The notes: generated by a model from the letters alone, not told the origin. 57,695 nt of DNA from an uncultured Oscillospiraceae bacterium (GCA_964560915.1 CAZLMO010000001.1:1-57695); one strand, 5' to 3'. Positions 30,318 to 53,612 are shown, numbered from the stretch's first letter. Program-made: numbers and translations.

Positions 30318-30354
30318 CCCCTTGCAGAAAATACAAGGGGTCTTTTTTTTTTTT
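30318..30354 (+). terminator. rho-independent terminator ending the late/lysis operon
   Basis: Stem CCCCTTG / CAAGGGG followed by a T-rich tail (TCT12). Confidence 0.85.
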
Positions 30355-30380
30355 CATTAAAAACATACTCTATAATGAAA
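30354..30380 (+). promoter_or_regulatory. phage promoter-like motif copy 1 (variant)
   Basis: TCATTAAAAACATACTC-TATAAT-GAAA. Matches the family consensus except the first base. Confidence 0.5.
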
Positions 30381-30403
30381 TAATATTTGAAAGGATGTTT
30401 GAG

Positions 30404-30538
30404 ATGGAATTTAATATAGCAATGATAGTTTGGTTGTTTGGTACCTTTATAGGTTCGGCAATTATAGCTGCAGGAGTTGTAAAATTCTGTACAAGAAACG
30501 ACGATAAAGAAGATGATTTCGAAGAAGAAGCTAACTAA
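30404..30538 (+). CDS. small membrane protein (44 aa)
   Basis: GAAAGGA RBS. TM helix IAMIVWLFGTFIGSAIIAAGVV with an acidic tail. The stop lies in the terminator loop. Confidence 0.55.
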   Translation: MEFNIAMIVWLFGTFIGSAIIAAGVVKFCTRNDDKEDDFEEEAN

Positions 30539-30550
30539 GCTTCTTTCTTT
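30525..30550 (+). terminator. intrinsic terminator
   Basis: Stem AAGAAGCT / AGCTTCTT, loop AACTA containing the TAA stop, T-rich tail. Confidence 0.65.
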
Positions 30551-30577
30551 GCAATAAAAACACGGCATATAATGAAA
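30551..30577 (+). promoter_or_regulatory. phage promoter-like motif copy 2
   Basis: GCAATAAAAACACGGCA-TATAAT-GAAA. Confidence 0.6.
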
Positions 30578-30660
30578 AGGAATAAGTATCCTGAGACGAT
30601 TTGAATAAGTGCGCAACTTATTGGCAGATCTGTGGAACTTATTCTTTTCTTTGTTTTTCT
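30578..30660 (+). ncRNA. candidate small RNA / attenuator (no ORF)
   Basis: Lies downstream of motif copy 2 with no RBS-led ORF before the next promoter. GAATAAGT occurs at 30580 and 30603; ACTTATT(C) occurs at 30616 and 30637. These allow nested or mutually exclusive hairpins. The outer stem is followed by TTTTCTTTGTTTTTC. Confidence 0.4.
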
Positions 30661-30764
30661 CATATTTTTAAGCGTTTTCTCTGAAAAAGTGACCCTCGAG
30701 GATGCCCTACAAACGATTTTTATTTGAAACGAATACTATTGTATAGGCCCTATTTCTAACAAAT

Positions 30765-30791
30765 GCAACTTAAACATGTTCTATAATGAAA
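30765..30791 (+). promoter_or_regulatory. phage promoter-like motif copy 3
   Basis: GCAACTTAAACATGTTC-TATAAT-GAAA. Confidence 0.6.
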
Positions 30792-30816
30792 GAATAATTC
30801 GAAAGTGGTGGATTAG

Positions 30817-30915
30817 ATGGGATTAGTATTAAGCATAGTTGTGTATACATTTATGATGGGAGTACTGGTGATATTAGGAAGCCTCGAAAAAGGTTCATAT
30901 CAAGGGAAGCACTAA
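30817..30915 (+). CDS. small membrane protein (32 aa)
   Basis: Not in the ORF track (<60 aa). GTGGTGGA RBS-like. Sequence MGLVLSIVVYTFMMGVLVILGSLEKGSYQGKH. Shares its GKH-stop-terminator end with 30998-31150. Confidence 0.45.
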   Translation: MGLVLSIVVYTFMMGVLVILGSLEKGSYQGKH

Positions 30916-30927
30916 GCTTCTCTTTTT
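30904..30927 (+). terminator. intrinsic terminator
   Basis: Stem GGGAAGC / GCTTCTC, loop ACTAA containing the stop, T5. The 25 nt at 30903-30927 are identical to 31138-31162. Confidence 0.65.
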
Positions 30928-30947
30928 GCGTTATATTTCTTTCCTTT

Positions 30948-30974
30948 GCAATTAAAACATGGCCTATAATGAAA
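30948..30974 (+). promoter_or_regulatory. phage promoter-like motif copy 4
   Basis: GCAATTAAAACATGGCC-TATAAT-GAAA. Confidence 0.6.
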
Positions 30975-30997
30975 GAATAATTAAAGGAGAGATTTAA

Positions 30998-31150
30998 ATG
31001 ACAATGGATATGCAAATTTTAAATGCTGAACTACAAAAATTATCAATGCAAACCGCGAAGGTTTATTTGGTGTTTATGGTAGCCATGGCAGTAGTACTTG
31101 TAATCCGTACATTAAATGAGAAAGGTTATTTTTATAGAGGGAAGCACTAA
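30998..31150 (+). CDS. small membrane protein (50 aa)
   Basis: Not in the ORF track. RBS AAAGGAGAG. TM helix VYLVFMVAMAVVLVI. Ends in GKH-stop inside the terminator loop. Confidence 0.5.
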   Translation: MTMDMQILNAELQKLSMQTAKVYLVFMVAMAVVLVIRTLNEKGYFYRGKH

Positions 31151-31162
31151 GCTTCTCTTTTT
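31139..31162 (+). terminator. intrinsic terminator (duplicate of 30904-30927)
   Basis: Same GGGAAGC-ACTAA-GCTTCTC-TTTTT sequence. Confidence 0.65.
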
Positions 31163-31175
31163 CTATCGATCGATC

Positions 31176-31202
31176 GCAACAATTACACGGCACATAATGA
31201 AT
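31176..31202 (+). promoter_or_regulatory. phage promoter-like motif copy 5
   Basis: GCAACAATTACACGGCA-CATAAT-GAAT. Confidence 0.5.
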
Positions 31203-31268
31203 AGGGGGCATGGAATAATATGGCCTCTTAAATTTTTCAAAAGGAAGGTGTTAATACTATGCAAGACC

Positions 31269-31343
31269 GCGAGCCTATTTGGGATGAGATTGAGGCTGAT
31301 GTTAATGCTGTTGCGAAAAACAAGGGTATGTAACTGAGACACA
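31269..31343 (+). CDS. possible 24-aa leader peptide
   Basis: AAGGAAGG RBS 8 nt upstream. Sequence MQDREPIWDEIEADVNAVAKNKGM. Very short, so speculative. Confidence 0.2.
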
Positions 31344-31373
31344 AATTTCCAAAAAACGTAGGAGGACAAACGA

Positions 31374-32168
31374 ATGGACTTTAGTTCAGTGCAGCGAGGC
31401 GTAAAAAACCTCGGGGGAGTAATTTCTAAAAACAGTCCACATATTTTAACAGGGTTAGGATGCGCAGGAGTATTTACAACTGCCATTTTAACAGGCCGTG
31501 CAACTTTAAAAGCGCATACCATTTTAGAGCGAGAAGAGGAATATAGAAAAGAGCAGAATAAAGACTCTTATTCAGAACCTCTTCCCCCAATGGAAGTTGT
31601 GCAATTAACATGGAAGACCTTTGTTCCCCCAGTACTTATGGGATTAACTTCTATTGCATGTATCGTAGGGGCCAACACAATCAGTGCAAATCGCAATGCG
31701 GCTATTGCAGCGTTATATTCTTTAAGCGAGACTGCGTTTCGCGAATATAAGGACAAGGTTGTAGAAGAAGTTGGTAAAACAAAAGAACGAGCAATTCGAG
31801 ACAGCATTTCACAAGATCATATTAATGCGCGTCCGGTGAACACAAGCACCGTTATTGTCACTGGTCAGGGGGATGTACTGTGCCATGATGCGATGTCAAA
31901 AAGATATTTTAGATCCAGTCCGGAAAAAATCCGTCAGGTGGTGGCAGATTTAGACGATTTGCTTCGATTGGAGTCCTGGATACCACTTAATGAATTTTAT
32001 TATCGATTACATATGGATACATGCGATCTTGGTGCAAATTGTGGTTTTAATCCTTATAAGGGGAATGGACGAGTTGAAATTGATTATAATAGCAGCCTCA
32101 CTCCAGAGGGCATTCCTTGCCTTGAAGTTAGTGCGAAAACATATCCTAATCCAAATTGGATACCATAA
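31374..32168 (+). CDS. membrane-anchored protein, paralog A of 41177-42121
   Basis: RBS TAGGAGGA. Shares with the 41177 product P.IL.G.G..GV..T..L...ATLKA..IL.E and N.A..AAY.L.E.AF..Y...V..E.G. Resembles an uncharacterised phage family (possibly DUF6353-type; unverified). Confidence 0.6.
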   Translation: MDFSSVQRGVKNLGGVISKNSPHILTGLGCAGVFTTAILTGRATLKAHTILEREEEYRKEQNKDSYSEPLPPMEVVQLTWKTFVPPVLMGLTSIACIVGANTISANRNAAIAALYSLSETAFREYKDKVVEEVGKTKERAIRDSISQDHINARPVNTSTVIVTGQGDVLCHDAMSKRYFRSSPEKIRQVVADLDDLLRLESWIPLNEFYYRLHMDTCDLGANCGFNPYKGNGRVEIDYNSSLTPEGIPCLEVSAKTYPNPNWIP

Positions 32169-32171
32169 AAC

Positions 32172-32198
32172 GCACATAAAACTTGCCCCATAATGGAA
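32172..32198 (+). promoter_or_regulatory. phage promoter-like motif copy 6
   Basis: GCACATAAAACTTGCCC-CATAAT-GGAA. The 29 nt at 32167-32195 are identical to 35256-35284. Confidence 0.55.
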
Positions 32199-32215
32199 AG
32201 AAAGGAGATGGGAAA

Positions 32216-32500
32216 ATGACAATTAATTTACCCAAAACAATGAAATCAAAAATCAAAGACGAGAGGTCTAAGGTTTTCACACAGATGTGTAAACCAGAAA
32301 TTTCTCCCCAAGAATGGGAGCTATTAAACAGAAAGTATCAAGCATATTCGGACATGATTAAACCATCATGGACGATTACGCCTGACGCAATCTTGTTTGC
32401 GGCTACTAATTTGGGCGGGATCTTGTTGGTACTCAACTATGAGAAACTGGACATTATACGTAGTAAGGCGTTTGGCTTATTGTTCAAGGGAAGGGTTTAA
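32216..32500 (+). CDS. small protein with C-terminal TM helix (94 aa)
   Basis: ATG at 32216 lies 8 nt after AAGGAG. The stop lies in the terminator loop. Confidence 0.55.
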   Translation: MTINLPKTMKSKIKDERSKVFTQMCKPEISPQEWELLNRKYQAYSDMIKPSWTITPDAILFAATNLGGILLVLNYEKLDIIRSKAFGLLFKGRV

Positions 32501-32518
32501 AGGGCCCTTCTCCTTTTT
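32490..32518 (+). terminator. intrinsic terminator
   Basis: Stem GAAGGG / CCCTTC with the TAA stop in the loop, then T5. Confidence 0.6.
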
Positions 32519-32558
32519 GTGTCGCCTCATAAATAAACGAAACGAAAGGAAGAACGAA

Positions 32559-32819
32559 ATGAAAAAACAATTAGTTACTTTAGGTCTGATCGCAGGTGGC
32601 GCTTATATTATGGGGAAGGTTATATGGATAGTCGCCGAGGTTAGTTTTAAATTCGGAGAAATGGTCGGCGAAGTAGAAGCGACAGCTAATGAATTGGATA
32701 GACAGCGACAAGAAAGTTATTACAATGATACGTACAAAGCAACTAGAAGACGTAATCGTGATCGCCGTATTACTTACAGAACATACTCTGAAAAAGGAGA
32801 GGGTGAGGGTGATATCTAA
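32559..32819 (+). CDS. small membrane protein (86 aa)
   Basis: RBS AAAGGAAG. TM helix LVTLGLIAGGAYIMGKVIWIVA with a basic/acidic tail. Confidence 0.55.
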   Translation: MKKQLVTLGLIAGGAYIMGKVIWIVAEVSFKFGEMVGEVEATANELDRQRQESYYNDTYKATRRRNRDRRITYRTYSEKGEGEGDI

Positions 32820-33075: not shown

Positions 33076-33120
33076 TACACAAGAAACATGTGAAATTGAT
33101 TAAAAGAAAGAGGAATAAAA

Positions 33121-34224: not shown

Positions 34225-34234
34225 GGAGGACGCC

Positions 34235-34609: not shown

Positions 34610-34614
34610 GGCTC

Positions 34615-34641
34615 GCATATAAAACCTCCCGTATAATGGGA
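34615..34641 (+). promoter_or_regulatory. phage promoter-like motif copy 7
   Basis: GCATATAAAACCTCCCG-TATAAT-GGGA. Confidence 0.55.
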
Positions 34642-34670
34642 GTTATAATAAGAAAGGATGGAGAAAGATT

Positions 34671-34937: not shown

Positions 34938-34954
34938 AGCCTCTCTTCTTTTTT
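34928..34954 (+). terminator. intrinsic terminator
   Basis: Stem AGAGGC / GCCTCT, loop GTAAA containing the TAA stop, T-rich tail. Confidence 0.65.
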
Positions 34955-34974: not shown

Positions 34975-35268
34975 GTGGAAGTTTTAGTAATGAGTATAAT
35001 TGCATTTTTGACACTGATAAGCTTCTCGGTATTGAATGGTATGAAGAAAGTACAAAAAATGCATCGACATCTAGAGGAAGAAGTCATTCCTCCACCAGCA
35101 CCTCCGATGCCGCCAACCCCAGAAGAGATAGCAGGGTGGGTTTTTCCAAATAAAGACGAAGCTATCAGCATGTGCACTTATATTTTGTGTACAGATTTAT
35201 ACGAGGTGGTTCGAAATAGGAAAAATGGTAAACTTACTAAAGGTTGGGTACTTAAAAAACGCACATAA
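34975..35268 (+). CDS. small membrane protein with Pro-rich linker (97 aa)
   Basis: GTG after AAAGGAA, or ATG at 34990. TM helix IIAFLTLISFSVL, then PPPAPPMPPTPEE. Confidence 0.5.
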   Translation: MEVLVMSIIAFLTLISFSVLNGMKKVQKMHRHLEEEVIPPPAPPMPPTPEEIAGWVFPNKDEAISMCTYILCTDLYEVVRNRKNGKLTKGWVLKKRT

Positions 35269-35287
35269 AACTTGCCCCATAATGAAA
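35261..35287 (+). promoter_or_regulatory. phage promoter-like motif copy 8
   Basis: GCACATAAAACTTGCCC-CATAAT-GAAA. Overlaps the stop of the upstream CDS and drives the tRNA-like element. Confidence 0.55.
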
Positions 35288-35375
35288 GAATATGCTAAAT
35301 GTATGGAGTAATGGTAACTCGCCGATTCGTCGGAGACGTGGTTCGAAGCCACTAACCATATTCTTTCATTTTTAA
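35288..35375 (+). ncRNA. tRNA-like structured RNA (non-canonical, no anticodon loop)
   Basis: The closing stem is GAATATG (35288-35294) with CATATTC (35357-35363), extendable to 14 bp. The D-arm-like element is GAGT-AATGGTA-ACTC (35306-35320). The UUCG-capped mini helix is CCGA-TTCG-TCGG (35322-35333). The T-arm-like element is GTGG-TTCGAAG-CCAC (35338-35352). A T5 tail follows, and the region has no ORF. Confidence 0.4.
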
Positions 35376-35402: not shown

Positions 35403-36290
35403 ATGCAATTAACCCCAATGCTTGGTGAAAACCTAAAGAACTATCCTATATCTGTGCTAGAGGGCAAACTCTGGCGCATGTCGGAAAAAGTTGATGGAAC
35501 CCGTAGATTATTTTATAAATCTGCGACGGCTGATATTTCGGCATGGAGCCGTGCAAATATCGAAGACCCATGGCTAAAACATATCGCAGATCATGTTAGT
35601 GCTCCGTGGTTTCCACATGACACTGTTTATGACTGCGAACTGGTAGATCGAGAATTATATTTTAAACATGCTCCAAGTTTTATTCTGAGATCTGTAACGA
35701 ACGCGAAGGCGTCACAACAGTATCCTGATAATAAAACAGATCTTATGTCGGTTTGTTTTGATATGTTCCGCCCCGGTGGAGATCTTCGTTTGGGAAGAGA
35801 GCGCGATGCCGAATTATATGCTCTGTTTAATGGAACCTCTCAGCGCGACCCAATGGTACGCGTTCCTATATTTGGAAACGTGTTTGGTGGAGATTCGGAG
35901 ACAATTCAAAAAACCATGTCTGAAGTTACCGCTCGAAATGGCGAAGGACTCATGCTTATGGATATGGGTTCTATTTATATTCCAGGCAGAAGCACTGCGC
36001 TTCTAAAGGTAAAACGACTGCAGGAGTTTATTGGTCAAGTAATTGATGTTGAAATGGCACGACCCGGAACAAAAATTGCGGGTATGATTGCGGCAGTTGT
36101 CTGTATTGTAGACGGTTGTACGGTGCCTGTTCGAGTTGGTACGGGATTTAACAATTCCGAAAGAATCGCCATGGTAAACGATTCACCAATTGGGAAAAAG
36201 ATTGAAATCGAAGCGTTTTCATATTCTCAAGATAAACGCGGCGCGGTCTCTTTAAATCTACCAGTATTTAAACAATTTGTAGGAGGATAA
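35403..36290 (+). CDS. lig: ATP-dependent DNA ligase
   Basis: Nucleotidyltransferase motifs are present: I EKVDGTR, III VYDCELV, IV GEGLMLMD and V ALLKVKR. A compact T7-like size of 295 aa. Confidence 0.85.
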   Translation: MQLTPMLGENLKNYPISVLEGKLWRMSEKVDGTRRLFYKSATADISAWSRANIEDPWLKHIADHVSAPWFPHDTVYDCELVDRELYFKHAPSFILRSVTNAKASQQYPDNKTDLMSVCFDMFRPGGDLRLGRERDAELYALFNGTSQRDPMVRVPIFGNVFGGDSETIQKTMSEVTARNGEGLMLMDMGSIYIPGRSTALLKVKRLQEFIGQVIDVEMARPGTKIAGMIAAVVCIVDGCTVPVRVGTGFNNSERIAMVNDSPIGKKIEIEAFSYSQDKRGAVSLNLPVFKQFVGG

Positions 36291-38313: not shown

Positions 38314-38730
38314 ATGCGCATAACAAAAACCGTAACGGCAGTGACCCCTAGATATGCCGATAACGGCTCGGCGGGTATGGATTTATATGTAGATACTGCT
38401 GAATCATATACCCTTCAACCAGGCGAAACCTATTATTTGCCAACAGGAATTCGAGTAGAAATACCGCGAAATTTCTTTGGGGTTATTTATCCGCAATCTA
38501 ATCTCTTTAGAAAAGGGTTGGTACTAGCAAATGCGGTGACAGTCCTTAATGCTACAGATCGCGGAGAGATAATGTTGGCGGTAAAGAATGTGTTCTCTGA
38601 TATAGTTCGGATCAACGGCCAATGGGGACTTAGATCTCCATTGGCGCAATTGGTTATTCAACCCTATCGTTTTGAAAAAATTGAATTGGATGATATTCTT
38701 GAACAAGAGTCGCTAAGCATTAAGATTTGA
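38314..38730 (+). CDS. dut: dUTP diphosphatase
   Basis: GSAGMDLY, GVIYPQSNL and TDRGEI match trimeric dUTPase motifs. Confidence 0.8.
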   Translation: MRITKTVTAVTPRYADNGSAGMDLYVDTAESYTLQPGETYYLPTGIRVEIPRNFFGVIYPQSNLFRKGLVLANAVTVLNATDRGEIMLAVKNVFSDIVRINGQWGLRSPLAQLVIQPYRFEKIELDDILEQESLSIKI

Positions 38731-38731
38731 T

Positions 38732-38758
38732 GCAATAAAAACATGACCTTTAATGAAA
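38732..38758 (+). promoter_or_regulatory. phage promoter-like motif copy 9
   Basis: GCAATAAAAACATGACC-TTTAAT-GAAA. Confidence 0.5.
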
Positions 38759-39013: not shown

Positions 39014-39038
39014 GAAAGGGCATTGCCTTTTCTTTTTC
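39014..39038 (+). terminator. intrinsic terminator
   Basis: Stem GAAAGGG / CCTTTTC (one G-U pair) followed by a T-rich tail (TTTTTC). Confidence 0.6.
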
Positions 39039-39065
39039 GCAATTAAATCCTATGTTATAATAGGA
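39039..39065 (+). promoter_or_regulatory. phage promoter-like motif copy 10
   Basis: GCAATTAAATCCTATGT-TATAAT-AGGA. Confidence 0.5.
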
Positions 39066-39316: not shown

Positions 39317-39353
39317 TGCACAGGTTGACGGAACATACAATCATTAAGCCCTC

Positions 39354-39380
39354 GCGGAATTATCTCCTCCTATAATAGAA
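39354..39380 (+). promoter_or_regulatory. phage promoter-like motif copy 11 (divergent upstream half)
   Basis: GCGGAATTATCTCCTCC-TATAAT-AGAA. Confidence 0.45.
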
Positions 39381-39402: not shown

Positions 39403-39546
39403 ATGATTACACTACTGATTATGGTGGTTCTTTTGAGTGTAATATGCGGATTGTTGTGTAAATTTGTATCGGCCCTTGTGGGTGTGATATTTATAATGGC
39501 AGCGATGGCATTTACACTTCGAATGGCCAAAGAGATCTTAAGGTGA
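39403..39546 (+). CDS. small membrane protein (47 aa)
   Basis: Not in the ORF track. RBS AAAGGAGGAA. Sequence MITLLIMVVLLSVICGLLCKFVSALVGVIFIMAAMAFTLRMAKEILR. Confidence 0.55.
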   Translation: MITLLIMVVLLSVICGLLCKFVSALVGVIFIMAAMAFTLRMAKEILR

Positions 39547-39567
39547 GAGCTACGGCTCTCCTTTTTT
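39545..39567 (+). terminator. intrinsic terminator
   Basis: Stem GAGAGC / GCTCTC with a TACG loop, then T6. Confidence 0.75.
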
Positions 39568-39573
39568 CGCCTC

Positions 39574-39600
39574 GCAGAATCTTCTTACCCTATAATGGAA
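39574..39600 (+). promoter_or_regulatory. phage promoter-like motif copy 12
   Basis: GCAGAATCTTCTTACCC-TATAAT-GGAA. Confidence 0.55.
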
Positions 39601-39817: not shown

Positions 39818-39840
39818 GAGAGCTACGGCTCTCCTTTTTT
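39818..39840 (+). terminator. intrinsic terminator
   Basis: GAGAGC-TACG-GCTCTC followed by T6. Confidence 0.75.
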
Positions 39841-39846
39841 CGCCTC

Positions 39847-39873
39847 GCAGAATCTTCTTACCCTATAATGGAA
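39847..39873 (+). promoter_or_regulatory. phage promoter-like motif copy 13
   Basis: GCAGAATCTTCTTACCC-TATAAT-GGAA. Confidence 0.55.
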
Positions 39874-40113: not shown

Positions 40114-40148
40114 AAAGAGGGCAATACTTACTCCCTCTTTCTTTATTC
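40114..40148 (+). terminator. intrinsic terminator
   Basis: Stem AAAGAGGG / CCCTCTTT with an 11-nt loop and a T-rich tail. Confidence 0.6.
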
Positions 40149-40175
40149 GCAGAAAATACTAATTATATAATGAAG
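40149..40175 (+). promoter_or_regulatory. phage promoter-like motif copy 14
   Basis: GCAGAAAATACTAATTA-TATAAT-GAAG. Confidence 0.5.
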
Positions 40176-40195: not shown

Positions 40196-40387
40196 ATGAT
40201 GATGAAGGCGGCTTTAAAAGTAATGGTAGGGCTCAGTGTGGGAGCGGCGATCGGAGCAACGGGAATACTCGTTGGAATGGTTTACACTGCTGCCGTTGTA
40301 CTGACAAGTCCAACCGTATTCGAGTGTGTCGAAAAAAATCATAAAGAAGTCCAAGAAGCATTGGCAGAAAAGAAAGAGGCGGAATAA
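40196..40387 (+). CDS. small membrane protein (63 aa)
   Basis: RBS AAAGGAGGAA. Gly/Ala-rich TM helices. Ends in KEAE-stop inside the terminator loop. Confidence 0.6.
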   Translation: MMMKAALKVMVGLSVGAAIGATGILVGMVYTAAVVLTSPTVFECVEKNHKEVQEALAEKKEAE

Positions 40388-40401
40388 GCCTCTTCTTTTT
40401 G
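40375..40401 (+). terminator. intrinsic terminator
   Basis: Stem AGAGGC / GCCTCT, loop GGAATAA containing the TAA stop, T-rich tail. Confidence 0.65.
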
Positions 40402-40411
40402 TTTATCGATC

Positions 40412-40438
40412 GCAACATTTACAACTCATATAATGAAA
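40412..40438 (+). promoter_or_regulatory. phage promoter-like motif copy 15
   Basis: GCAACATTTACAACTCA-TATAAT-GAAA. Confidence 0.55.
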
Positions 40439-40777: not shown

Positions 40778-40819
40778 GATGAATGTAATGTTATTGCATT
40801 ACTAACCTAAATATGGGAG

Positions 40820-40851
40820 AGACTTATTGGAAACAATGAGTCTTCTTTTTG
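40820..40851 (+). terminator. intrinsic terminator
   Basis: Stem AGACTTATTG / CAATGAGTCT (one G-U pair), GAAA loop, T-rich tail. Confidence 0.65.
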
Positions 40852-40854
40852 TCG

Positions 40855-40881
40855 TAATGAAATCCTGCTCTATAATGAGAA
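40855..40881 (+). promoter_or_regulatory. phage promoter-like motif copy 16 (variant)
   Basis: GTAATGAAATCCTGCTC-TATAAT-GAGA. Confidence 0.45.
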
Positions 40882-41176: not shown

Positions 41177-42121
41177 ATGAATTTCAAGGCAATAATGGGC
41201 GGAGTATCGTACACATTGAAAAAATACGCACCGGAGATTCTCCTCGGAGTGGGTATTACCGGCGTAGTTGTTAGCACAGTATTATCGTGCAAAGCAACTC
41301 TCAAAGCGGAAGCCATTCTAGACGAACACGCAGAACAAAGTGAACGCATTGACGACTGCGTATTGGTTCGCGAAACCTCGGACGTTAACTACTCAATTCA
41401 AGAAGAAAAACATGATCGATTGGTTCTTTTATCAGCAACCGGAGGAAAGTTTATTCGGTTATATGGTCCCAGTGGAACCCTTATGTTGTTTTCTCTCGGG
41501 TGCATTCTTGCATCTTATCGTATCATGAGAACTCGAAATGTTGCGCTTATGGCAGCGTACAAACTCATGGAAGAAGCCTTCATGAATTACAGAAAACGAG
41601 TATCCGCTGAACTTGGCGACCGTGCCGACAGTCATTTTCTGTATGGAGAAGAAATGGTTGAAGGTACTGCTCGCACTGTTACCGAAGAAGATGGTACAGA
41701 ACATGAAATGATGGTTGTAAAAAATAACCTTAGTGGGTTCCATCGCTTCTTTGAAGCAGAAAAACCTAATCAAATTGGTGGTTGGACCGGATCAACTCAG
41801 TGGAGCAAAGTTCATGAGTACAATCTTAGTTTTCTCGAACATAAAGAAGAACATTTCACCAATATGCTCGCTGTTCGAGGCCTTGTGACCATGAATGACG
41901 TATTTTCTGAACTTGGTTTTGAGCCAACAGAGGCTGGGATGGTTGTTGGATGGAAGTATAACTCCGAACGAGGCGACAATTATATTTCATTTAGACCTCG
42001 CAACGTTGACGGAAACTGGGCATTTGGACAAAACGGATGCGGGATTCTTCTTGATTTTAACTTTGATGGGGTTGTCTTTGATCCAACGGTTGCTCGTAAA
42101 GAGGTAAAACAAATCAAATAA
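41177..42121 (+). CDS. membrane-anchored protein, paralog B of 31374-32168
   Basis: RBS GAAGGAGGAAA. For the shared motifs see 31374-32168. Confidence 0.6.
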   Translation: MNFKAIMGGVSYTLKKYAPEILLGVGITGVVVSTVLSCKATLKAEAILDEHAEQSERIDDCVLVRETSDVNYSIQEEKHDRLVLLSATGGKFIRLYGPSGTLMLFSLGCILASYRIMRTRNVALMAAYKLMEEAFMNYRKRVSAELGDRADSHFLYGEEMVEGTARTVTEEDGTEHEMMVVKNNLSGFHRFFEAEKPNQIGGWTGSTQWSKVHEYNLSFLEHKEEHFTNMLAVRGLVTMNDVFSELGFEPTEAGMVVGWKYNSERGDNYISFRPRNVDGNWAFGQNGCGILLDFNFDGVVFDPTVARKEVKQIK

Positions 42122-46220: not shown

Positions 46221-47017
46221 AAAAGGTATTTTTTGGAACTGTAGTTTTTGGACTTGGTGCCGTTGCTGGATATTTCACTGCTAAAAAGATGCTTAGAACC
46301 CAATATCAAAACGATGTTGCAGAAGTTCAAGCATTCTATTATCAAAAACTTGAGGAATTGGGCGTTATGGAAGAAGGTTTTGATCCTCTAGACGATAACG
46401 AAGAAGAGGAAGAGGTTGAGGATGATCCTGCTTCGGAGCTTATTACGGCATACCGGGCCGACGGACGGAAGCTTCATTACGATTATACCAAACCGCCGCT
46501 TGGAGATTTAAGACGGAAAATAGTTAGTGGTAGTGTTTTGGTTGAACCAAATGGTGAAGAATTATTGGGCGTTATTGATGATGACGAGGAAGACGAGTAT
46601 ATAGACGCCGAGTACGAAGCCGAACTTGAACAATCTGCCGAAGACTTCATGCGTCGACAAACAGAGAATATGCAGAAAGGCGAACCATATTTGATCGATG
46701 CTGACGAGTATCATCAAGGACCTAAAGAATATGAACGCCAAGCACTGTATTATTATGTCGAAGATCGTGTGCTTTGTGAAGATAATGATGAAGAAGTGGA
46801 CGATGAAGAAGCATGTGTGGGCCTGGACTACGAGGACAAACTTACAATGCAGACAACCTGTTGGGTTCGAAACGATACGTTGAAGATGCTTTATGAAATT
46901 CATCGTATTGATGATTCATTTAAGCGAGCGGTATTAGGAATTGTCGAGACGCCACGGGAACGCGAATTCCGAATTCAAGGACGACGGAAAAAAGGAATGG
47001 ATAATCATAAAAAGTAA
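46217..47017 (+). CDS. acidic membrane-anchored protein (266 aa)
   Basis: N-terminal TM helix VFFGTVVFGLGAVAGYF followed by long acidic tracts. Confidence 0.5.
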   Translation: MKKVFFGTVVFGLGAVAGYFTAKKMLRTQYQNDVAEVQAFYYQKLEELGVMEEGFDPLDDNEEEEEVEDDPASELITAYRADGRKLHYDYTKPPLGDLRRKIVSGSVLVEPNGEELLGVIDDDEEDEYIDAEYEAELEQSAEDFMRRQTENMQKGEPYLIDADEYHQGPKEYERQALYYYVEDRVLCEDNDEEVDDEEACVGLDYEDKLTMQTTCWVRNDTLKMLYEIHRIDDSFKRAVLGIVETPREREFRIQGRRKKGMDNHKK

Positions 47018-47018
47018 T

Positions 47019-47045
47019 GCAATAAAAACACCTCCTATAATGAGA
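47019..47045 (+). promoter_or_regulatory. phage promoter-like motif copy 17
   Basis: GCAATAAAAACACCTCC-TATAAT-GAGA. Confidence 0.6.
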
Positions 47046-47774: not shown

Positions 47775-47925
47775 GAATGGTGATACGAAATTACGTGTTT
47801 TTCACTCCTGTTATATTTATTCGTAGATTTTTTTTTATTAAAAATATTATATAGAGTAATAGGGAAATGTTACAAAAACGTGTAATTTTGAAACAGAGAT
47901 AAATATACAGAAAGGAGGATAAGTT
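47775..47925 (+). promoter_or_regulatory. AT-rich intergenic region with imperfect inverted repeat (candidate regulatory/origin region)
   Basis: GAAATTACGTGTTTTT (47787-47802) and AAAAACGTGTAATTTT (47874-47889) are inverted copies matching at 14 of 16 positions, both containing ACGTGT. T9 and A/T tracts lie between them. The region sits directly upstream of the replicase gene. Confidence 0.25.
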
Positions 47926-50900: not shown

Positions 50901-51891
50901 AAACTTTATTATGGCTAGAGCGATGCTTGATGGTAAATTGGCTCGATATTTAGATGATGAAAGTCAAGCAGAGGGACTATCATATGCATTAAAAATTGCA
51001 CTAAACAGTGCGTATGGTTTAACTAGTGCTTCATTTGATAATCCGATGAGAGATCGACGAAATAGTAATAATATTGTTGCTTTGCGGGGTGCGTTATTCA
51101 TGCGAACATTACAAGATGCGGTGCAAGCACGTGGGTTTACCGTAGCGCATATTAAGACCGACTCCATTAAAATTCCAAACGCAACTCCCGAAATTATTAA
51201 TTTTTGTAAAGAGTTTGCTCAGCAATATGGGTATATATTTGAGCACGAGGCAACATATGAAAAGTTTTGTTTAGTAAACAATGCTGTTTATATCGCTAAG
51301 TATGGTTGGGCTATGAAAAGAAATAAGATTGGAACATGGTCGGCCACTGGAGCGCAGTTCGCCGAGCCATTTTTATTCAAGAAGCTATTTTCAAAAGAAC
51401 CAATTGTGTTTGACGATTATAAGCAAACCAAAAGCGTTACCTCTCCTGCAGTAATGTATTTAGATTTCAACGAAGGTCTCCCAAAAGATGAGCATAATTA
51501 TCTTCATGTTGGCCGCGTTGGATCGTTTGTTCCTGTAGTCGATGGTGTTGGGGGTGGCGTTCTTTTACGCAAGAGCGGAGATACCTATACATCAGTCACC
51601 GGAACGAAAGGATATCGATGGAAAGAGAGCGAGGTTGTTAAAGCACTTGGAAATGAAGACCAAATTGCGTTATCATATTTTTATCGATTAATGGATGCCG
51701 CAATTACGTCAATAAAAACGTATGGCGCCATTTCAGATTTTTTAGATGATTGGGGGGAAACCGATGAGGAAGCAGACTATCCTATAGGTTTTAATGATAT
51801 CCCTCCGCTTCCTACCGTTGCATACGGTGTACTTATGAAAGAAGGAGACGATTATTATGGCTCAGACCGACAACCTAGAAGTGCGAATTGA
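47926..51891 (+). CDS. fused replicase: SF3 (D5/P4-like) helicase + AEP primase-polymerase-like domain + family B DNA polymerase with 3'-5' exonuclease
   Basis: TTG start after AAAGGAGGA. The P-loop is GTTGSGKST (aa ~186). The AEP motifs are VIDFD and SGAGIHLHY (aa ~510-552). The exonuclease motifs are YDVEVF, YNNKRYDDHIL and YCSNDV. PolB motif A is LDIQSMHPTS, motif B is KIALNSAYG and motif C is HIKTDSIKI. Confidence 0.75.
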   Translation: MDFIKVYTRESKNTSKNRDAGTTEVSIDFKVFNTKDLMTRGHSFYAVYDPSKTLWSKDEMAVVQLVDAEIMKVVNKLQEADKPVTYGLMEDYQSGNWQKYTSYIKNMPDNWVPLDEKIHFANDKLTRDSHATRRLPYSRQAGSIENYDKLMSVLYSPTERDKLEWAVGAILTGDSRHIQKFITLYGTTGSGKSTFLNIVQKLVEGYYISFNAKSLVGNDAFGAEIFKFNPLVAIQHDGDLSKIEDNSTLNSIISHEDIVINEKHKSKYTYRSLCFLFLGTNKPVAISDSKSGLLRRLIDVHPSGEKVSKNEYSRLVKNINFELGAIADYCIVKYLKMGEDYYQNYQPKEMMFETNTLYNFVFENFLVLENGEYFQLRQLYDMYKRYCDDSGEQFPLKKRVFRAEMKSYFESFHDIARLDDGKQVRSIYRGFKGDIFNPGQKDKDAEPVDTGWLHIDKTESLFDKTFANIPAQYANDAGTPEHRWVNCSTTLKDVDTSKLHYVLGMPENHIVIDFDIPGDDGEKSLVKNLEEANKWPPTYSELSKSGAGIHLHYMWEGGRVSELKRLYAPGIEVKVFTGNSSLRRKLTWCNTEPIACLTSGLEYDEKKGGDTLLNKKNVEDEKHLRIMIKKCMNKEFHGFTKPECEFIYKLLSEAYSSGMVYDVSDMRASVFAFAASSSHQAAACIDLVNKMKWASEVTQTIGPLADDNGEIVFYDVEVFKNLFLICYKLRGKGRKIVTLVNPSPSEVGKLFGLKLVGYNNKRYDDHILYGRYLGYTNEQLYELSKKIISKEGSVHSGFREAYNIAFTDIYDFCSEKKSLKKWEIELGIPHQELEFAFDEPIPEKYWPKVIEYCSNDVVASEAVFEHRYADWIAREILADLAGGTPNMTTNQLTTRIVFGNDRNPQLEYTNLEELFPGYEFVRGDDNKMHNMYRGTDVGMGGYVYAEPGMYYETALLDIQSMHPTSLINMNYFGKYTQRYADLKDARVAIKNGNFIMARAMLDGKLARYLDDESQAEGLSYALKIALNSAYGLTSASFDNPMRDRRNSNNIVALRGALFMRTLQDAVQARGFTVAHIKTDSIKIPNATPEIINFCKEFAQQYGYIFEHEATYEKFCLVNNAVYIAKYGWAMKRNKIGTWSATGAQFAEPFLFKKLFSKEPIVFDDYKQTKSVTSPAVMYLDFNEGLPKDEHNYLHVGRVGSFVPVVDGVGGGVLLRKSGDTYTSVTGTKGYRWKESEVVKALGNEDQIALSYFYRLMDAAITSIKTYGAISDFLDDWGETDEEADYPIGFNDIPPLPTVAYGVLMKEGDDYYGSDRQPRSAN

Positions 51892-52351
51892 CAACGCTCA
51901 AGTAATGTTTCGAAACTTTGCAGGGATAGCTAAAAAGTTTAATCAACCTGGCGATAGGAATTTTTGCATATTCCTGTCCGATGAGGTTGCTAAAAAGTTA
52001 GCGAAAGATGGATGGAATATTCGCTGGCTTACTTCGCGATCAGAAGAACCACCGCAGGCAATGCTTGCTGTGAAAGTTAATTTTGGAAACCGCCCACCAA
52101 ATATTGTAGTGGTGTCAGATGGAAAAATGACAAAACTCACGGAAGCCACAATTAAAGAACTTGACTTTGCCGAATTTAAGCAGGTCGATCTTATTCTAAG
52201 AGGTTATAAGTGGGACGTAAGTGGACAAAAAGGAGTAAAAGCCTATCTTAAATCTGGGTATTTTGTTCTTGTAGTTGATGAGTTGGCAAAGAAATACTCA
52301 ACTACCAGCGATTCTGACCAAGAGGAAGTTGTGGAATATGCAATAGAATAA
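51857..52351 (+). CDS. putative ssDNA-binding protein (T7 gp2.5-like)
   Basis: 164 aa between the polymerase and helicase genes. OB-fold-like pattern and an acidic C-terminal tail (SDSDQEEVVEYAIE). From memory of the gp2.5/DUF2815-type layout. Confidence 0.45.
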   Translation: MAQTDNLEVRIDNAQVMFRNFAGIAKKFNQPGDRNFCIFLSDEVAKKLAKDGWNIRWLTSRSEEPPQAMLAVKVNFGNRPPNIVVVSDGKMTKLTEATIKELDFAEFKQVDLILRGYKWDVSGQKGVKAYLKSGYFVLVVDELAKKYSTTSDSDQEEVVEYAIE

Positions 52352-52380
52352 GTTAGAAAATATGAAAAGGAGGTGAGAGT

Positions 52381-53583
52381 TTGAACATACAACTTACTGA
52401 ATATCAGGTTGAGGCCGTTGAGAAAATGCATAATGGTTGTATTCTGCGAGGCGGTACGGGTTCTGGGAAAACTCTTACCTCTTTAGTTCATGTATTTGAA
52501 AAAATTTTGAAAGGCAGTTCCCCTTTATATCCGGGGCACACATATAAGAAAGCCGCTGTTAACCTTTCCATATATGTTATTACTACTCCAAAAAAACGGG
52601 ACAGTCTTGATTGGACCAGAGAAGCGGCTCTTGTTCCTATAGGTCTTACGGTTGTTGATTCGTGGAATAATATTAAAAAATATGAGCATCTTAAAAACGC
52701 CGTATTTATTTTTGATGAGTCAAAAGTTATTGGGTATGGAGCATGGACGCAGTCGTTTCTTAAAATTACGAGACATAATGCGTGGATGCTTTTATCTGCA
52801 ACGCCAGGAGACACTTGGTTAGAATATATGCCAGTATTCATTGCCAATGGATTTTATAAAAACAAAACCGAATTTGAGCGAGAGCATGTGATGTGGAGTC
52901 GCTTCTCTAAATATCCAAAGGTTGAACGATATCTTGGTATATCTCGTTTAATTCGTCAACGAGATCTTATTACGGTGGATATGGGAGACCAACGAGCAAC
53001 AACGCAACACCATAAGGACGTGCTTTGTGATTTTAACGCAATTCATTATGAAATACTAGCAAAGGATAGATGGAACCTCTTTGAAAATAAACCAATTCGA
53101 GACATATCGCAGCTATGCTTTGCGCTTCGTAAGGTTGTAAATTCTGACGAATCAAGACTTGCCGCCCTCTCTACCATTTATGCTAGACATAAGAAAGTAA
53201 TCGTTTTCTATAACTTTAACTATGAATTAGAACTACTTCGCAGTTGGTGCGATTCTAATAAAATTGTGTATTCTGAATGGAATGGCCGTAATCATGACGA
53301 CTTACCCACAAGTCCACTTTGGGTATATCTTTGCCAATACACGGCCGCAAAAGAAGCATGGAATTGTATTGAAACTGATTGTATTGTATTTTATTCGCAA
53401 ACCTACTCATACAAGGCCCTTGTGCAGTCAGCGGGAAGAATTGATAGGATGAACACCACCTTCTTACATTTATACTATTATCATCTAATATCCTCTGCAC
53501 CAATTGAATTAGGCATACAAAAAGCTTTATATCATAAAGAAAACTTTAATGAAGGGCGTTGGCTTATGGCCGAAAGCTCTTAA
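52381..53583 (+). CDS. SF2 (SNF2/DEAD-like) helicase
   Basis: TTG start after AAAGGAGGTGAG. Walker A GGTGSGKT, Walker B-like IFDES, SAT-like motif LSATPG, and a C-terminal QSAGRIDR motif VI. Confidence 0.7.
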   Translation: MNIQLTEYQVEAVEKMHNGCILRGGTGSGKTLTSLVHVFEKILKGSSPLYPGHTYKKAAVNLSIYVITTPKKRDSLDWTREAALVPIGLTVVDSWNNIKKYEHLKNAVFIFDESKVIGYGAWTQSFLKITRHNAWMLLSATPGDTWLEYMPVFIANGFYKNKTEFEREHVMWSRFSKYPKVERYLGISRLIRQRDLITVDMGDQRATTQHHKDVLCDFNAIHYEILAKDRWNLFENKPIRDISQLCFALRKVVNSDESRLAALSTIYARHKKVIVFYNFNYELELLRSWCDSNKIVYSEWNGRNHDDLPTSPLWVYLCQYTAAKEAWNCIETDCIVFYSQTYSYKALVQSAGRIDRMNTTFLHLYYYHLISSAPIELGIQKALYHKENFNEGRWLMAESS

Positions 53584-53585
53584 TC

Positions 53586-53612
53586 GCAACAAAAACATAG
53601 CCTATAATGAGA
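53586..53612 (+). promoter_or_regulatory. phage promoter-like motif copy 18
   Basis: GCAACAAAAACATAGCC-TATAAT-GAGA. Confidence 0.6.

What the first reader, a model, noticed from the sequence alone, without database searches (positions are those of the whole stretch)
30354..53612. Eighteen copies of a 27-nt promoter-like motif with fixed geometry and no canonical -35
All 18 copies are on the + strand and in intergenic positions. Sixteen lie in 30.35-40.9 kb, one at 47019 and one at 53586; none lies in the 30-kb structural module.

Each copy follows (T)C-GCAAtAAAAACA-N5(C-rich)-TATAAT-GAAA. The leading G is always exactly 17 nt before the hexamer. Conservation runs from about -29 to +5.

The six bases where a sigma-A -35 box would sit (17-nt spacer) are unrelated to TTGACA, and there is no TGn extended -10. 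Conservation of this length and rigidity looks more like a phage-polymerase or phage-factor promoter than a generic host promoter. The motif may be the cognate promoter of the RNAP encoded at 54541-57411, or a host-RNAP promoter that needs a phage factor bound at the -29 to -18 box.
Basis: seen in the sequence. Interest (0 to 1): 0.8.

Follow-up and report, generated by a model that had tools for sequence, protein, structure and literature searches.

The report
Promoters for a phage's own polymerase
Eighteen near-identical 29-base signals in this phage genome are most likely the start sites used by the phage's own unusual single-protein RNA polymerase, and the same signal recurs in hundreds of related phages and prophages, so the way this uncharacterised enzyme family finds its genes can now be tested directly.

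Summary
Exactly 18 plus-strand copies of TCGCAAtAAAAACA-N5-TATAAT-GARA score 24.7-37.4 bits. Nothing else on either strand exceeds 11.3, and none lies in the 30-kb structural module.

The window is a complete phage genome of the Lactococcus-1706 / actinophage "supercluster". ORF 54541-57411 is that group's signature protein, a QDE-1/YonO-type two-barrel RNA polymerase (GADFDGD) with three fused helix-turn-helix motifs.

The same 29-nt architecture, in the same register, recurs wherever this polymerase occurs:
- Lactococcus, Arthrobacter, Gordonia, Streptomyces and Faecalibacterium phages;
- 22 metagenomic relatives;
- 74 of 80 genome-derived loci, including prophages in Clostridia isolates.

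One copy sits about 934 nt upstream of the polymerase gene in 87 of 98 loci.

Across lineages the hexamer is not held to the sigma-A -10 consensus. TTTTAT is the commonest form, with CTTTAT, TTAAAT and TGTTAT also seen. There is no -35 and no TGn. Structured RNAs downstream begin at the G right after the hexamer.

The best reading is a cognate promoter of the phage polymerase (confidence about 0.6). No biochemical proof exists, and how the first polymerase is made is unresolved. I found no published description of the motif.

The parts
30352..30380 (+). Promoter copy 1 (TTTCATTAAAAACATACTC-TATAAT-GAAA). It follows the strong terminator at about 30311-30345 and drives a small membrane-protein gene.
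30549..30577 (+). Promoter copy 2. It drives an ORF-less, hairpin-terminated transcript of about 75 nt.
30763..30791 (+). Promoter copy 3
30946..30974 (+). Promoter copy 4. It is preceded by a terminator at 30902-30924.
31174..31202 (+). Promoter copy 5 (hexamer CATAAT)
32170..32198 (+). Promoter copy 6 (CATAAT). It was not in the seed set and was recovered by the matrix.
34613..34641 (+). Promoter copy 7
35259..35287 (+). Promoter copy 8 (CATAAT). It drives the tRNA-like non-coding RNA and was not in the seed set.
38730..38758 (+). Promoter copy 9 (hexamer TTTAAT)
39037..39065 (+). Promoter copy 10
39352..39380 (+). Promoter copy 11
39572..39600 (+). Promoter copy 12. Together with its upstream terminator it is identical to copy 13.
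39845..39873 (+). Promoter copy 13, a duplicate of copy 12
40147..40175 (+). Promoter copy 14
40410..40438 (+). Promoter copy 15. It is preceded by a terminator at 40374-40394.
40852..40880 (+). Promoter copy 16. It is preceded by a terminator at 40819-40844.
47017..47045 (+). Promoter copy 17, ahead of a small gene, the 183-aa gene and the 1321-aa primase-polymerase gene.
53584..53612 (+). Promoter copy 18 (highest score). It heads the endonuclease-exonuclease-polymerase operon and is the only copy upstream of the structural genes across the genome end. This is the orthologous copy kept in 87 of 98 related loci.
54541..57411 (+). The 956-aa single-subunit two-barrel RNA polymerase homologue and proposed reader of the motif. 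It carries GADFDGD at aa 552-558 and helix-turn-helix motifs at about aa 41-62, 85-106 and 930-950. Its N-terminal peptide HFGTPRHSGRYPWGSG is conserved.
35284..35367 (+). tRNA-like structured RNA (end coordinate approximate). Its terminal stem begins at the first base after the hexamer of copy 8. It is used here as indirect evidence for the transcription start.
30574..30650 (+). Putative small RNA from copy 2 (end coordinate approximate). Its 5' end pairs with the 3' end just before a T-run.

Best explanation
The 18 copies are promoters read by the phage's own 956-aa single-subunit two-barrel RNA polymerase (ORF 54541-57411), not by host sigma-A holoenzyme.

**Inferred mechanism**
- The enzyme binds duplex DNA on one face.
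- It contacts three conserved blocks spaced about 10 bp apart: CGCA at 18-15 nt before the hexamer, an invariant C at 7 nt before it, and the A/T-rich hexamer. Contact is probably made through its three fused helix-turn-helix motifs.
- It melts the A/T-rich hexamer and starts at the conserved G immediately after it, so the hexamer lies at about -6 to -1.

**What the copies drive**
- Sixteen copies drive short cassettes of promoter, ribosome-binding site, small gene and terminator in 30.3-41 kb.
- One copy (47017) serves the replication genes.
- One copy (53584) serves the nuclease-polymerase operon. After the genome ends are joined, it probably also serves the 30-kb structural block.

**Status of each step**
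- Shown: the motif, its statistics, its conservation, its co-occurrence with the polymerase gene, and the polymerase fold.
- Inferred: which enzyme reads the motif, which domain contacts which block, the start site, and the read-through into the late genes.
For: **1. The motif is real and looks like a promoter.**
- There are 18 + strand sites and 0 - strand sites, all intergenic, often directly after intrinsic terminators.
- Typically the ribosome-binding site lies 13-19 nt after the hexamer and the start codon 25-34 nt after it.

**2. ORF 54541-57411 is a polymerase homologue.**
- It carries GADFDGD and matches phrog_4291 at E=0.
- The structure model has mean pLDDT 76.9. Its best PDB match is QDE-1 (7y7s_B, E 1.3e-5, probability 1.0), followed by beta-prime subunits.
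- The best viral-library match is annotated as an RNA-dependent RNA polymerase.
- Three helix-turn-helix motifs are present.
- Ruprich-Robert & Thuriaux (PMC2919709) and Koert et al. (10.1101/842583) had already predicted this family to be a polymerase.

**3. The same 29-nt register recurs with the polymerase gene in six lineages from two host phyla.**
- Selecting sites by flanks alone gives 85 + strand against 2 - strand sites in the window plus 22 relatives.
- A generic matrix gives 153 + strand against 7 - strand sites in 80 genome-derived loci.
- One copy lies a median of 934 nt upstream of the polymerase gene in 87 of 98 loci.

**4. The motif is not shaped like a sigma-A promoter.**
- There is no -35 (2.61 against 2.50 matches at random positions) and TGn occurs in 1 of 18 copies.
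- Canonical promoter-like sites are not enriched (50 found against 50.5 expected; 51 against 45.2).
- Across the family the hexamer is TTTTAT in 43 loci, TATAAT in 27, and TATTAT, TGTTAT, CTTTAT or TTAAAT in others. The position equivalent to the near-invariant -11A is therefore often T.
- This includes prophages in cultured Clostridia.

**5. Start-site evidence is indirect but consistent.**
- The terminal stem of a conserved tRNA-like RNA starts at the G after the hexamer. Nine of its pairs covary across 5 genomes.
- A predicted tRNA in phage FP_oengus begins 2 nt after the hexamer.
- Twenty-three of 56 terminal helices start exactly at that G.
- Leaders of the polymerase operon fold from nucleotide 1 in four relatives.

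**6. No other candidate reader was found.** No sigma factor turned up among the other 69 window proteins.

**7. There is a precedent.** Phage P23-45 two-barrel polymerases use their own conserved motifs, and the argument there also rested on motif and polymerase co-occurrence (PMC10770324).
Against: - No transcript 5' ends or in vitro data exist for any member.
- The polymerase gene itself sits behind a copy of the motif, so something else must make or deliver the first enzyme. Candidates are virion delivery, host read-through, or weak host recognition.
- In the window's own lineage the hexamer is a perfect sigma-A -10 followed by a purine-rich stretch, so host use cannot be excluded for this phage.
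- SPbeta YonO, the only characterised bacterial relative, transcribes late genes from a single promoter, whereas here the motif is concentrated in early-type cassettes.
- YonO shows no detectable pairwise similarity to this protein.
- The polymerase and the primase-polymerase co-occur in about 250 phage records. No relatives lacking the polymerase are therefore available as a negative control.
- The start-site inference could be confounded by RNA processing, or by purine and pyrimidine runs that pair by composition.
Confidence: 0.62

Rival explanations
1. These are host sigma-A promoters of the '-10 only' type. The host holoenzyme recognises TATAAT plus the purine-rich stretch after it and starts about 7 nt downstream. 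The upstream box only tunes strength, for example through DNA shape from the A-tract. A softer version is dual use: the host enzyme fires these promoters weakly to bootstrap, and the phage polymerase then takes over.
For: - The window lineage has TATAAT in 14 of 18 copies, and in 76 of 85 sites across its relatives.
- A G-rich or purine-rich stretch after the -10 is known to stabilise sigma region 1.2 contacts (established knowledge).
- Early-type genes and the polymerase gene itself lie behind the motif, which fits host transcription at the onset of infection.
- The cultured lytic members (Lactococcus P078, Arthrobacter Circum, Gordonia Secretariat) keep TATAAT, while integrated prophages mostly carry TTTTAT. 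This would fit a bootstrapping need in lytic phages.
Against: - There is no -35 and no TGn.
- Conservation extends over 29 nt and includes an invariant C and the CGCA block, which sigma-A does not need.
- The same architecture carries TTTTAT, CTTTAT, TGTTAT or TTAAAT in Clostridia prophages and a Streptomyces phage. In these the base equivalent to -11A is T.
- Downstream structured RNAs and a tRNA would be truncated by a start 7 nt after the hexamer.
Confidence: 0.17
2. This is a host core polymerase redirected by a phage-encoded factor, either a sigma-like protein or an activator that binds the CGCA...ACA box. It would be analogous to T4 MotA/AsiA middle promoters or to phage sigma factors.
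For: - The conserved box sits upstream of an A/T-rich hexamer.
- The C-terminal helix-turn-helix of the 956-aa protein matches Sigma70 region 4 profiles (PF08281 at 3.4e-6; PF04545 in many homologues).
Against: - No separate sigma factor or MotA/AsiA-like protein appears among the families listed for the other 69 proteins.
- The only conserved DNA-binding candidate is fused to a polymerase catalytic core with an intact metal-binding motif.
- CGCA lies only 14 nt from the hexamer, shorter than any primary-sigma spacer.
- The indirect start-site evidence places the start right after the hexamer.
Confidence: 0.12
3. This is not a promoter. The repeat would act at the RNA level as a processing or stability signal, or as a binding site for replication, packaging or regulation.
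For: - The purine-rich sequence after the hexamer often forms a 5' stem.
- Repeated intergenic motifs of unknown role are common in actinophages (PMC7302621).
Against: - The motif is strictly on one strand and lies between a terminator and a ribosome-binding site.
- Its distance to the start codon varies from 18 to 107 nt.
- The conserved part lies mostly upstream of the RNA structures.
- The cassettes contain no other candidate promoter.
Confidence: 0.05

Closest known systems
T7-type phage promoters (T7, T3, SP6 single-subunit polymerases)
   Same: - The element is a long contiguous conserved sequence of about 23-29 bp.
- It has an upstream recognition part, an A/T-rich segment just before the start, and a conserved purine-rich initial transcribed sequence (T7: TATA-GGGAGA; here: TATAAT-GARA).
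- There are many copies on one strand.
- Variants are lineage-specific and track the polymerase.
   Different: - The polymerase here is a two-barrel (QDE-1/beta-prime-like) enzyme, unrelated in fold to T7 polymerase.
- Recognition is probably through fused helix-turn-helix motifs rather than a specificity loop.
- The polymerase gene lies behind its own promoter type.
SPbeta YonO and its single late promoter (Forrest et al. 2017, PMC5467207)
   Same: - It is a single-chain two-barrel polymerase encoded by a Firmicute phage.
- Its family was grouped with the Lactococcus 1706 protein as 'YonO-like' (PMC2919709).
- Its promoter sequence, and whether it recognises promoters by itself, were left open.
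   Different: - There is no detectable pairwise similarity to YonO.
- YonO drives one late operon, whereas here there are 18 promoters, mostly in early-type cassettes.
- This family carries three helix-turn-helix motifs.
Thermus phage P23-45 virion and non-virion two-barrel polymerases with their AT-rich and GC-rich promoter motifs (Chaban et al. 2024, PMC10770324)
   Same: - Single-subunit two-barrel phage polymerases transcribe early genes from conserved phage-specific motifs.
- Motif and polymerase co-occurrence among relatives was used as evidence.
   Different: - It has two enzymes and two motifs, with one enzyme fused to the tape measure protein and injected.
- Here there is one enzyme and one motif class, and virion delivery has not been shown.
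Sigma-70/sigma-A promoters lacking a -35, and T4 MotA-dependent middle promoters
   Same: - In the window lineage the hexamer equals the -10 consensus.
- A conserved box replaces the -35.
   Different: - There is no TGn.
- The hexamer is not conserved as a -10 across the family.
- The box is too close to the hexamer.
- The start appears to follow the hexamer directly.
- No MotA/AsiA-like genes were detected.

Membership tests
Sigma-A (sigma-70 type) promoter | A -35 element related to TTGACA, 16-18 nt upstream of the -10 | tested here: not met
   The mean best match is 2.61 of 6, against 2.50 at random positions. Promoter-like sites are not enriched.
Sigma-A (sigma-70 type) promoter | A -10 hexamer TATAAT with near-invariant A at position 2 and T at position 6 | tested here: inconclusive
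   This is met in the window: 17 of 18 copies have A at position 2. It is not met in homologous promoters of relatives, where TTTTAT occurs in 43 loci and CTTTAT, TGTTAT and TTAAAT also occur.
Sigma-A (sigma-70 type) promoter | An extended -10 (TGn) when the -35 is absent | tested here: not met
   TGn is present in 1 of 18 copies.
Sigma-A (sigma-70 type) promoter | Transcription start about 6-8 nt after the hexamer | tested here: inconclusive
   Only indirect evidence is available. RNA terminal stems and a tRNA begin 1-2 nt after the hexamer. No 5'-end data exist.
Phage-polymerase-specific promoter (functional class, T7-like logic) | A long conserved element, present in many copies on one strand, that co-occurs with a phage polymerase gene and varies with its lineage | tested here: met
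Phage-polymerase-specific promoter (functional class, T7-like logic) | Initiation at the element depends on the phage polymerase and not on the host enzyme | not testable with these tools
   This needs in vitro transcription, or rifampicin and knockout experiments.
Two-barrel (QDE-1/YonO-like) single-subunit RNA polymerase (ORF 54541-57411) | Metal-binding DxDGD loop | tested here: met
   GADFDGD is present. It is invariant in 48 homologues and in five distant lineages.
Two-barrel (QDE-1/YonO-like) single-subunit RNA polymerase (ORF 54541-57411) | Overall fold related to QDE-1 or the beta-prime and beta barrels | tested here: met
   Foldseek places QDE-1 (7y7s_B) first at E 1.3e-5 and probability 1.0, followed by beta-prime subunits. 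TM-scores are low (0.23), so domain placement is uncertain.
Two-barrel (QDE-1/YonO-like) single-subunit RNA polymerase (ORF 54541-57411) | Sequence similarity to SPbeta YonO | tested here: not met
   BLASTP gives E about 1. This is a separate family within the superfamily, as in PMC2919709.
Two-barrel (QDE-1/YonO-like) single-subunit RNA polymerase (ORF 54541-57411) | DNA-dependent RNA synthesis | not testable with these tools
   No member of this family has been assayed in the literature I could read.
T4 MotA/AsiA-type sigma appropriation | Phage genes for an activator and a sigma-remodelling factor | tested here: not met
   No such families appear among the Pfam and NCBIfam hits listed for the other 69 proteins. 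Five Pfam families were not displayed, so the test is incomplete.

The most novel reading that the evidence does not exclude
A very large, uncharacterised family of single-chain two-barrel RNA polymerases recognises promoters without any sigma factor. It would do so by laying three fused helix-turn-helix motifs along one face of a 29-bp duplex element and starting directly after an A/T-rich hexamer. In lytic members such as this phage the enzyme would be carried in the virion, targeted by its conserved N-terminal peptide, which resembles DUF7211. The whole programme would then run independently of the host polymerase.
Probability: 0.2. Interest if true: 0.85.

Novelty: new variant of a known kind. 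Interest (0 to 1): 0.72.

Why it matters
How single-chain two-barrel polymerases of the YonO type find promoters has been an open question. The YonO paper states that the promoter sequence, and whether the enzyme recognises it alone, remain to be determined (PMC5467207).

This family offers what is needed to address that question:
- It is abundant. At least 7,986 protein clusters matched, and 310 genomic loci.
- It occurs in culturable phages of Lactococcus, Arthrobacter, Gordonia and Streptomyces, and in gut Clostridia prophages.
- It now has a precise candidate promoter with natural lineage variants, TATAAT against TTTTAT.

That makes in vitro transcription, specificity swaps and structure determination straightforward to design. 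It could also yield compact new orthogonal polymerase-promoter pairs.

It may further explain why these phages keep a G+C content 20-30% below that of their actinobacterial hosts (10.1101/842583).

Tried and rejected
**Searches that found nothing or did not help**
- A near-identity DNA search of 30-42 kb against cultured phages gave no match.
- The SPbeta region upstream of yonK showed no comparable motif, and YonO is not alignable to this protein.
- Sequence searches of the PDB matched only the helix-turn-helix parts.
- Rfam at the gathering threshold found nothing in the window. ARAGORN found no tRNA in the window.

**Negative control that was not available**
- I looked for relatives lacking the polymerase. 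The primase-polymerase and the RNA polymerase co-occur in about 250 records, so none is available.

**Analyses that were uninformative**
- Ten residues discriminate the TATAAT and TTTTAT polymerase groups, but they may be mere lineage markers, so I did not interpret them.
- A possible shifted promoter reading (AAAACA as a -35 for a second -10 downstream) was considered. I dropped it because the downstream hexamer is not conserved among copies.
- A sigma-54 reading (TTGCA) was dropped because no GG lies 10 nt upstream.

**Literature**
- Searches found no description of the motif.
- The Lactococcus 1706 paper (Garneau 2008) and the ReqiPepy6 paper were not readable, so prior description there cannot be excluded.

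Full report
**1. Checking the observation**

A literal search for GCAANAAAAACANNNNNTATAAT with up to 3 mismatches gave 13 matches, 12 of them on the + strand between 30.3 and 53.6 kb. Dinucleotide shuffles predict 0.74.

A 29-column weight matrix built from 16 copies returned exactly 18 + strand sites scoring 24.7-37.4 bits. These include two sites not used to build it (32170 and 35259). The next best score on either strand is 11.3. Shuffled genomes give 0.045 sites at a score of 15 or more, and the best score in the structural module (1-30300) is 7.8.

The counts per feature are:
- Hexamer: TATAAT in 14 copies, CATAAT in 3, TTTAAT in 1.
- G at 17 nt before the hexamer: 17 of 18.
- C at 7 nt before the hexamer: 18 of 18.
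- G directly after the hexamer: 16 of 18.
- Best TTGACA match at 16-18 nt spacing: 2.61 of 6 on average, against 2.50 at random positions.
- TGn: 1 of 18.

The only correction is that the "always" for the leading G is 17 of 18.

**2. Context in the window**

The window begins and ends with the same 9 bases (CTTCTACAT), and relatives read straight across that junction. It is therefore a complete phage genome. All genes are on the + strand.
- Positions 1-30.3 kb hold terminase, portal, protease-capsid, tail and lysis-type genes.
- Positions 30.3-41 kb hold many small genes, several of them membrane proteins.
- In that region, units of terminator, motif, ribosome-binding site and gene recur. Terminator-like sites number 32 against 13.6 expected, mostly on the + strand just before motif copies.
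- Positions 41-57.4 kb hold the ssDNA-binding domain, 5'-3' exonuclease, dUTPase, a 1321-aa primase-polymerase, helicase, endonuclease, exonuclease and the 956-aa ORF.
- Canonical sigma-70-like promoters are not enriched: 50 found against 50.5 expected in 29.5-48 kb, and 51 against 45.2 in 1-20 kb.
- No sigma factor or integrase was found among the other 69 proteins.

**3. The 956-aa protein**

- It matches phrog_4291, annotated "RNA-dependent RNA polymerase", at E=0.
- It contains GADFDGD, which is invariant in 48 homologues and in five distant lineages.
- A structure model with mean pLDDT 76.9 finds QDE-1 (7y7s_B) as its best PDB match at E 1.3e-5 and probability 1.0. Beta-prime subunits of cellular polymerases follow.
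- The viral library returns a protein annotated as an RNA-dependent RNA polymerase, together with crAss-type proteins.
- TM-scores are low (about 0.23), so only fold-class membership is claimed.
- Helix-turn-helix motifs lie at about aa 41-62, 85-106 and 930-950. The last matches Sigma70 region 4 profiles.
- Pairwise BLASTP against SPbeta YonO finds nothing.
- This agrees with Ruprich-Robert & Thuriaux, who placed the Lactococcus 1706 protein in a separate "YonO-like" family (PMC2919709).
- Koert et al. noted the same protein, with DxDGD and terminal helix-turn-helix domains, as the signature gene of a supercluster. That supercluster joins Streptomyces BI, Arthrobacter AM/AU/AW, Gordonia DJ, Rhodococcus CC, Microbacterium EL, Lactococcus 1706-like and Faecalibacterium phages. 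Their text does not mention promoters (10.1101/842583).
- Homologues at 33-45% identity sit at the right genome end of 250 cultured phages.
- The window is a new, uncultured member. Its nearest relatives come from metagenomes and from MAGs labelled Eubacteriales, Oscillospiraceae and Gudongella.

**4. The motif in relatives**

This is the central result. All lineages share one 29-nt register.

| Lineage | Consensus |
|---|---|
| Window lineage | TCGCAAtAAAAACA-N5-TATAAT-GARA |
| Lactococcus P078 | TTTTAAGTTTTACA-TACCC-TATAAT-GARAGGA (10 copies in the scanned 34.5 kb) |
| Arthrobacter Circum (phage G+C 45%, host 63%) | TCGCGTAAATTACA-nGGGn-TATAAT-GARA |
| Gordonia Secretariat | TCGCAnnnATTACA-yGCCy-TATAAT-GAGACCCCTAyGAA |
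| Streptomyces RosaAsantewaa | TCGCAAGATnTACA-N5-hexamer-GAGACCCC; hexamers TTAAAT x4, TATAAT, TTATAT, TAAGAT |
| Faecalibacterium FP_oengus (temperate) | aCGCGAAAAAtaCA-N5-CTTTAT-GGAAG (11 copies) |

- In the window lineage, 16 IMG/VR loci found through the polymerase (all but L008 carrying a copy about 1 kb upstream of the gene) and 6 found through the ligase carry many copies.
- Choosing sites by flanks alone, ignoring the hexamer, gives 85 + strand against 2 - strand sites, and 76 of the 85 have TATAAT.
- A matrix pooled from the six lineages finds 153 + strand against 7 - strand sites in 80 genome-derived loci totalling 1.34 Mb. Seventy-four of the 80 loci have at least one site.
- Many of these loci are prophages in cultured Clostridia: [Ruminococcus] torques ATCC 27756, Hungatella hathewayi, Blautia faecis, Cuneatibacter caecimuris, Enterocloster lavalensis and Lachnospira hominis.
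- In 87 of 98 loci a copy lies a median of 934 nt upstream of the polymerase start, with a 10th-90th percentile range of 907-1042. This places it ahead of the nuclease-polymerase operon.
- At that orthologous copy the hexamers are TTTTAT in 43 loci, TATAAT in 27, TATTAT in 4, TGTTAT in 4, TGTAAT in 2, and single cases of others.
- Hexamer type follows polymerase relatedness: the nearest neighbour has the same type in 66 of 80 cases, against 0.40 expected by chance. This is what co-inheritance predicts and does not by itself prove co-evolution.

**5. Why this argues against host sigma-A**

In primary-sigma promoters, the A at position 2 and the T at position 6 of the -10 hexamer are the bases captured by sigma region 2. 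They are nearly invariant in all bacteria (established knowledge).

Here the family keeps the CGC(A/G) block, the A/T tract, the invariant C, the final AT of the hexamer and the following G-purines. It lets position 2 be T in most Clostridia prophages, in FP_oengus and in most Streptomyces-phage copies. The constraint on the element is therefore not the sigma-A constraint. Together with the absent -35 and TGn, the family-wide element is phage-specific.

**6. Where transcription probably starts (indirect evidence)**

- Copy 8 (35259) is followed not by an ORF but by a cloverleaf-like RNA of about 85 nt.
  - Its terminal stem pairs the bases from the G right after the hexamer with the 3' end, just before a T-run.
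  - In five genomes, 9 of 28 pairs show compensatory changes, including pairs inside the terminal stem.
  - RNAalifold adds three weak A-U pairs reaching into the hexamer, which I regard as fortuitous.
- Copy 2 (30549) is followed by a hairpin RNA of about 75 nt whose 5' end pairs with the 3' end before a T-run (z = -2.98).
- In FP_oengus a predicted tRNA begins 2 nt after the hexamer.
- Across 275 distinct sites, 56 have a helix of at least 9 bp closing near the hexamer and ending at a T-rich tail.
  - The outermost 5' base is exactly the first base after the hexamer in 23 cases.
  - It is 3 bases earlier in 14 cases, which is the same helix extended by AAT:ATT pairing.
  - The purine run after the hexamer biases this count, so I treat it as supportive only.
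- Leaders of the polymerase operon fold from nucleotide 1 into a hairpin followed by a U-tract in L002, L006, L060 and L080. The z-scores are -4.1, -4.8, -4.3 and -1.8 respectively.
- A start 7 nt downstream, as sigma geometry requires, would truncate all of these. RNA processing from longer transcripts remains a possible confound.

**7. Proposed mechanism**

The conserved blocks are centred about 17 and 7 nt before the hexamer and within it. They are roughly 10 bp apart and so lie on one face of the helix. The polymerase carries three helix-turn-helix motifs. I infer that:
- the enzyme docks on the duplex through these motifs;
- it opens the A/T-rich hexamer;
- it starts at the following G.

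This resembles T7-type promoters in logic (recognition part, TATA, GGGAGA) but uses an unrelated, two-barrel enzyme.

Copy 53584 is the only copy upstream of the structural block in the circular map, and the same holds in prophage order. It is therefore likely to serve the late genes as well, once the genome ends are joined. A conserved hairpin plus T-run just inside the left end (28-47) may modulate that read-through.

**8. What remains unexplained**

The polymerase gene lies behind its own promoter type in every lineage, so the first molecules must come from elsewhere. Three options exist:
- Delivery in the virion. The invariant N-terminal peptide HYGTPRxSGRYPWGSG resembles the DUF7211 motif carried by three proteins of the head-gene module.
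- Read-through by the host enzyme. Temperate members such as FP_oengus must use this on induction.
- Weak host recognition of the TATAAT variants in lytic members.

None of these was testable here.

**9. Rival readings**

- Host sigma-A alone, or dual use: confidence about 0.17.
- Host core polymerase plus a phage factor: about 0.12.
- Not a promoter: about 0.05.

The arguments for and against each are given in their own sections.

**10. Novelty**

Phage-polymerase-specific promoters are a known kind. No promoter has been described for this polymerase family in anything I could read, and no member has been assayed. Two relevant subscription papers could not be read.

I rate this a new variant of a known kind. 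It is of real interest because it turns the open question of sigma-independent promoter recognition by single-chain two-barrel polymerases into a set of simple experiments in culturable systems.

Noticed in passing
window 35284-35367: A conserved cloverleaf-like (tRNA-like) RNA of about 85 nt lies just upstream of the ATP-dependent ligase gene (35403-36290). It has an 11-bp terminal stem, three hairpins and a T-arm-like GGTTCGAAGCC. Nine pairs covary across five genomes. Neither ARAGORN nor Rfam calls it.
   Followed up: partly
window 30574-30650: An ORF-less cassette lies behind promoter copy 2. It folds into a hairpin of about 75 nt ending in a T-run (z = -2.98) and is a candidate small RNA.
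   Followed up: partly
window 53609-53668; L002, L006, L060, L080 equivalents: The leader of the nuclease-polymerase operon forms a hairpin from its first nucleotide, followed by a U-tract, in several lineages that differ in sequence. It could be an attenuator or a 5' stabiliser. In the window itself a second hairpin pairs with the ribosome-binding site.
   Followed up: partly
window 3007-3648, 3697-4389, 5435-5914 and 54541-54630: [quoted passage not shown] The polymerase has an invariant N-terminal peptide of similar pattern (HFGTPRHSGRYPWGSG). This may be a shared targeting signal; its function is unknown.
   Followed up: partly
window 1-9 and 57687-57695; 57660-57695 and 10-47: The window has a 9-base terminal repeat (CTTCTACAT). 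The junction is conserved in relatives, with G-run/C-run hairpins on both sides and a terminator-like hairpin plus T-run at 28-47. This is probably the cos region.
   Followed up: partly
window 39545-39600 and 39818-39873: An identical block of terminator plus promoter occurs twice, 273 nt apart. This looks like a recent tandem duplication of a small-gene cassette.
   Followed up: no
L021 1853, 5682, 9394, 18133; L022 2475, 4519, 8310: A second short motif, GTCAAAATGGGAG, recurs in the structural modules of the Streptomyces and Gordonia relatives, sometimes overlapping start codons. It resembles the 3' half of the promoter (xAxAAT-GRGA). The window has only weak counterparts at 9013 and 11010.
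   Followed up: partly
L029, L045, L047, L060, L080, L098 versus L017, L018, L022 and the window: Integrated or temperate members mostly carry TTTTAT, TGTTAT or CTTTAT hexamers. The cultured lytic members and the window lineage carry TATAAT. This may link lifestyle to the need for host recognition; it has not been tested statistically.
   Followed up: no
window 31374-32168 and 41177-42121: Two paralogous DUF6353 proteins (E 5.6e-67 and 2.8e-55) are encoded 10 kb apart in the non-structural region.
   Followed up: no
window 47775-47925: A very A/T-rich gap of about 150 nt, with T and A runs, lies directly upstream of the primase-polymerase gene. It has no motif copy and may be an origin or another regulatory region.
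   Followed up: no
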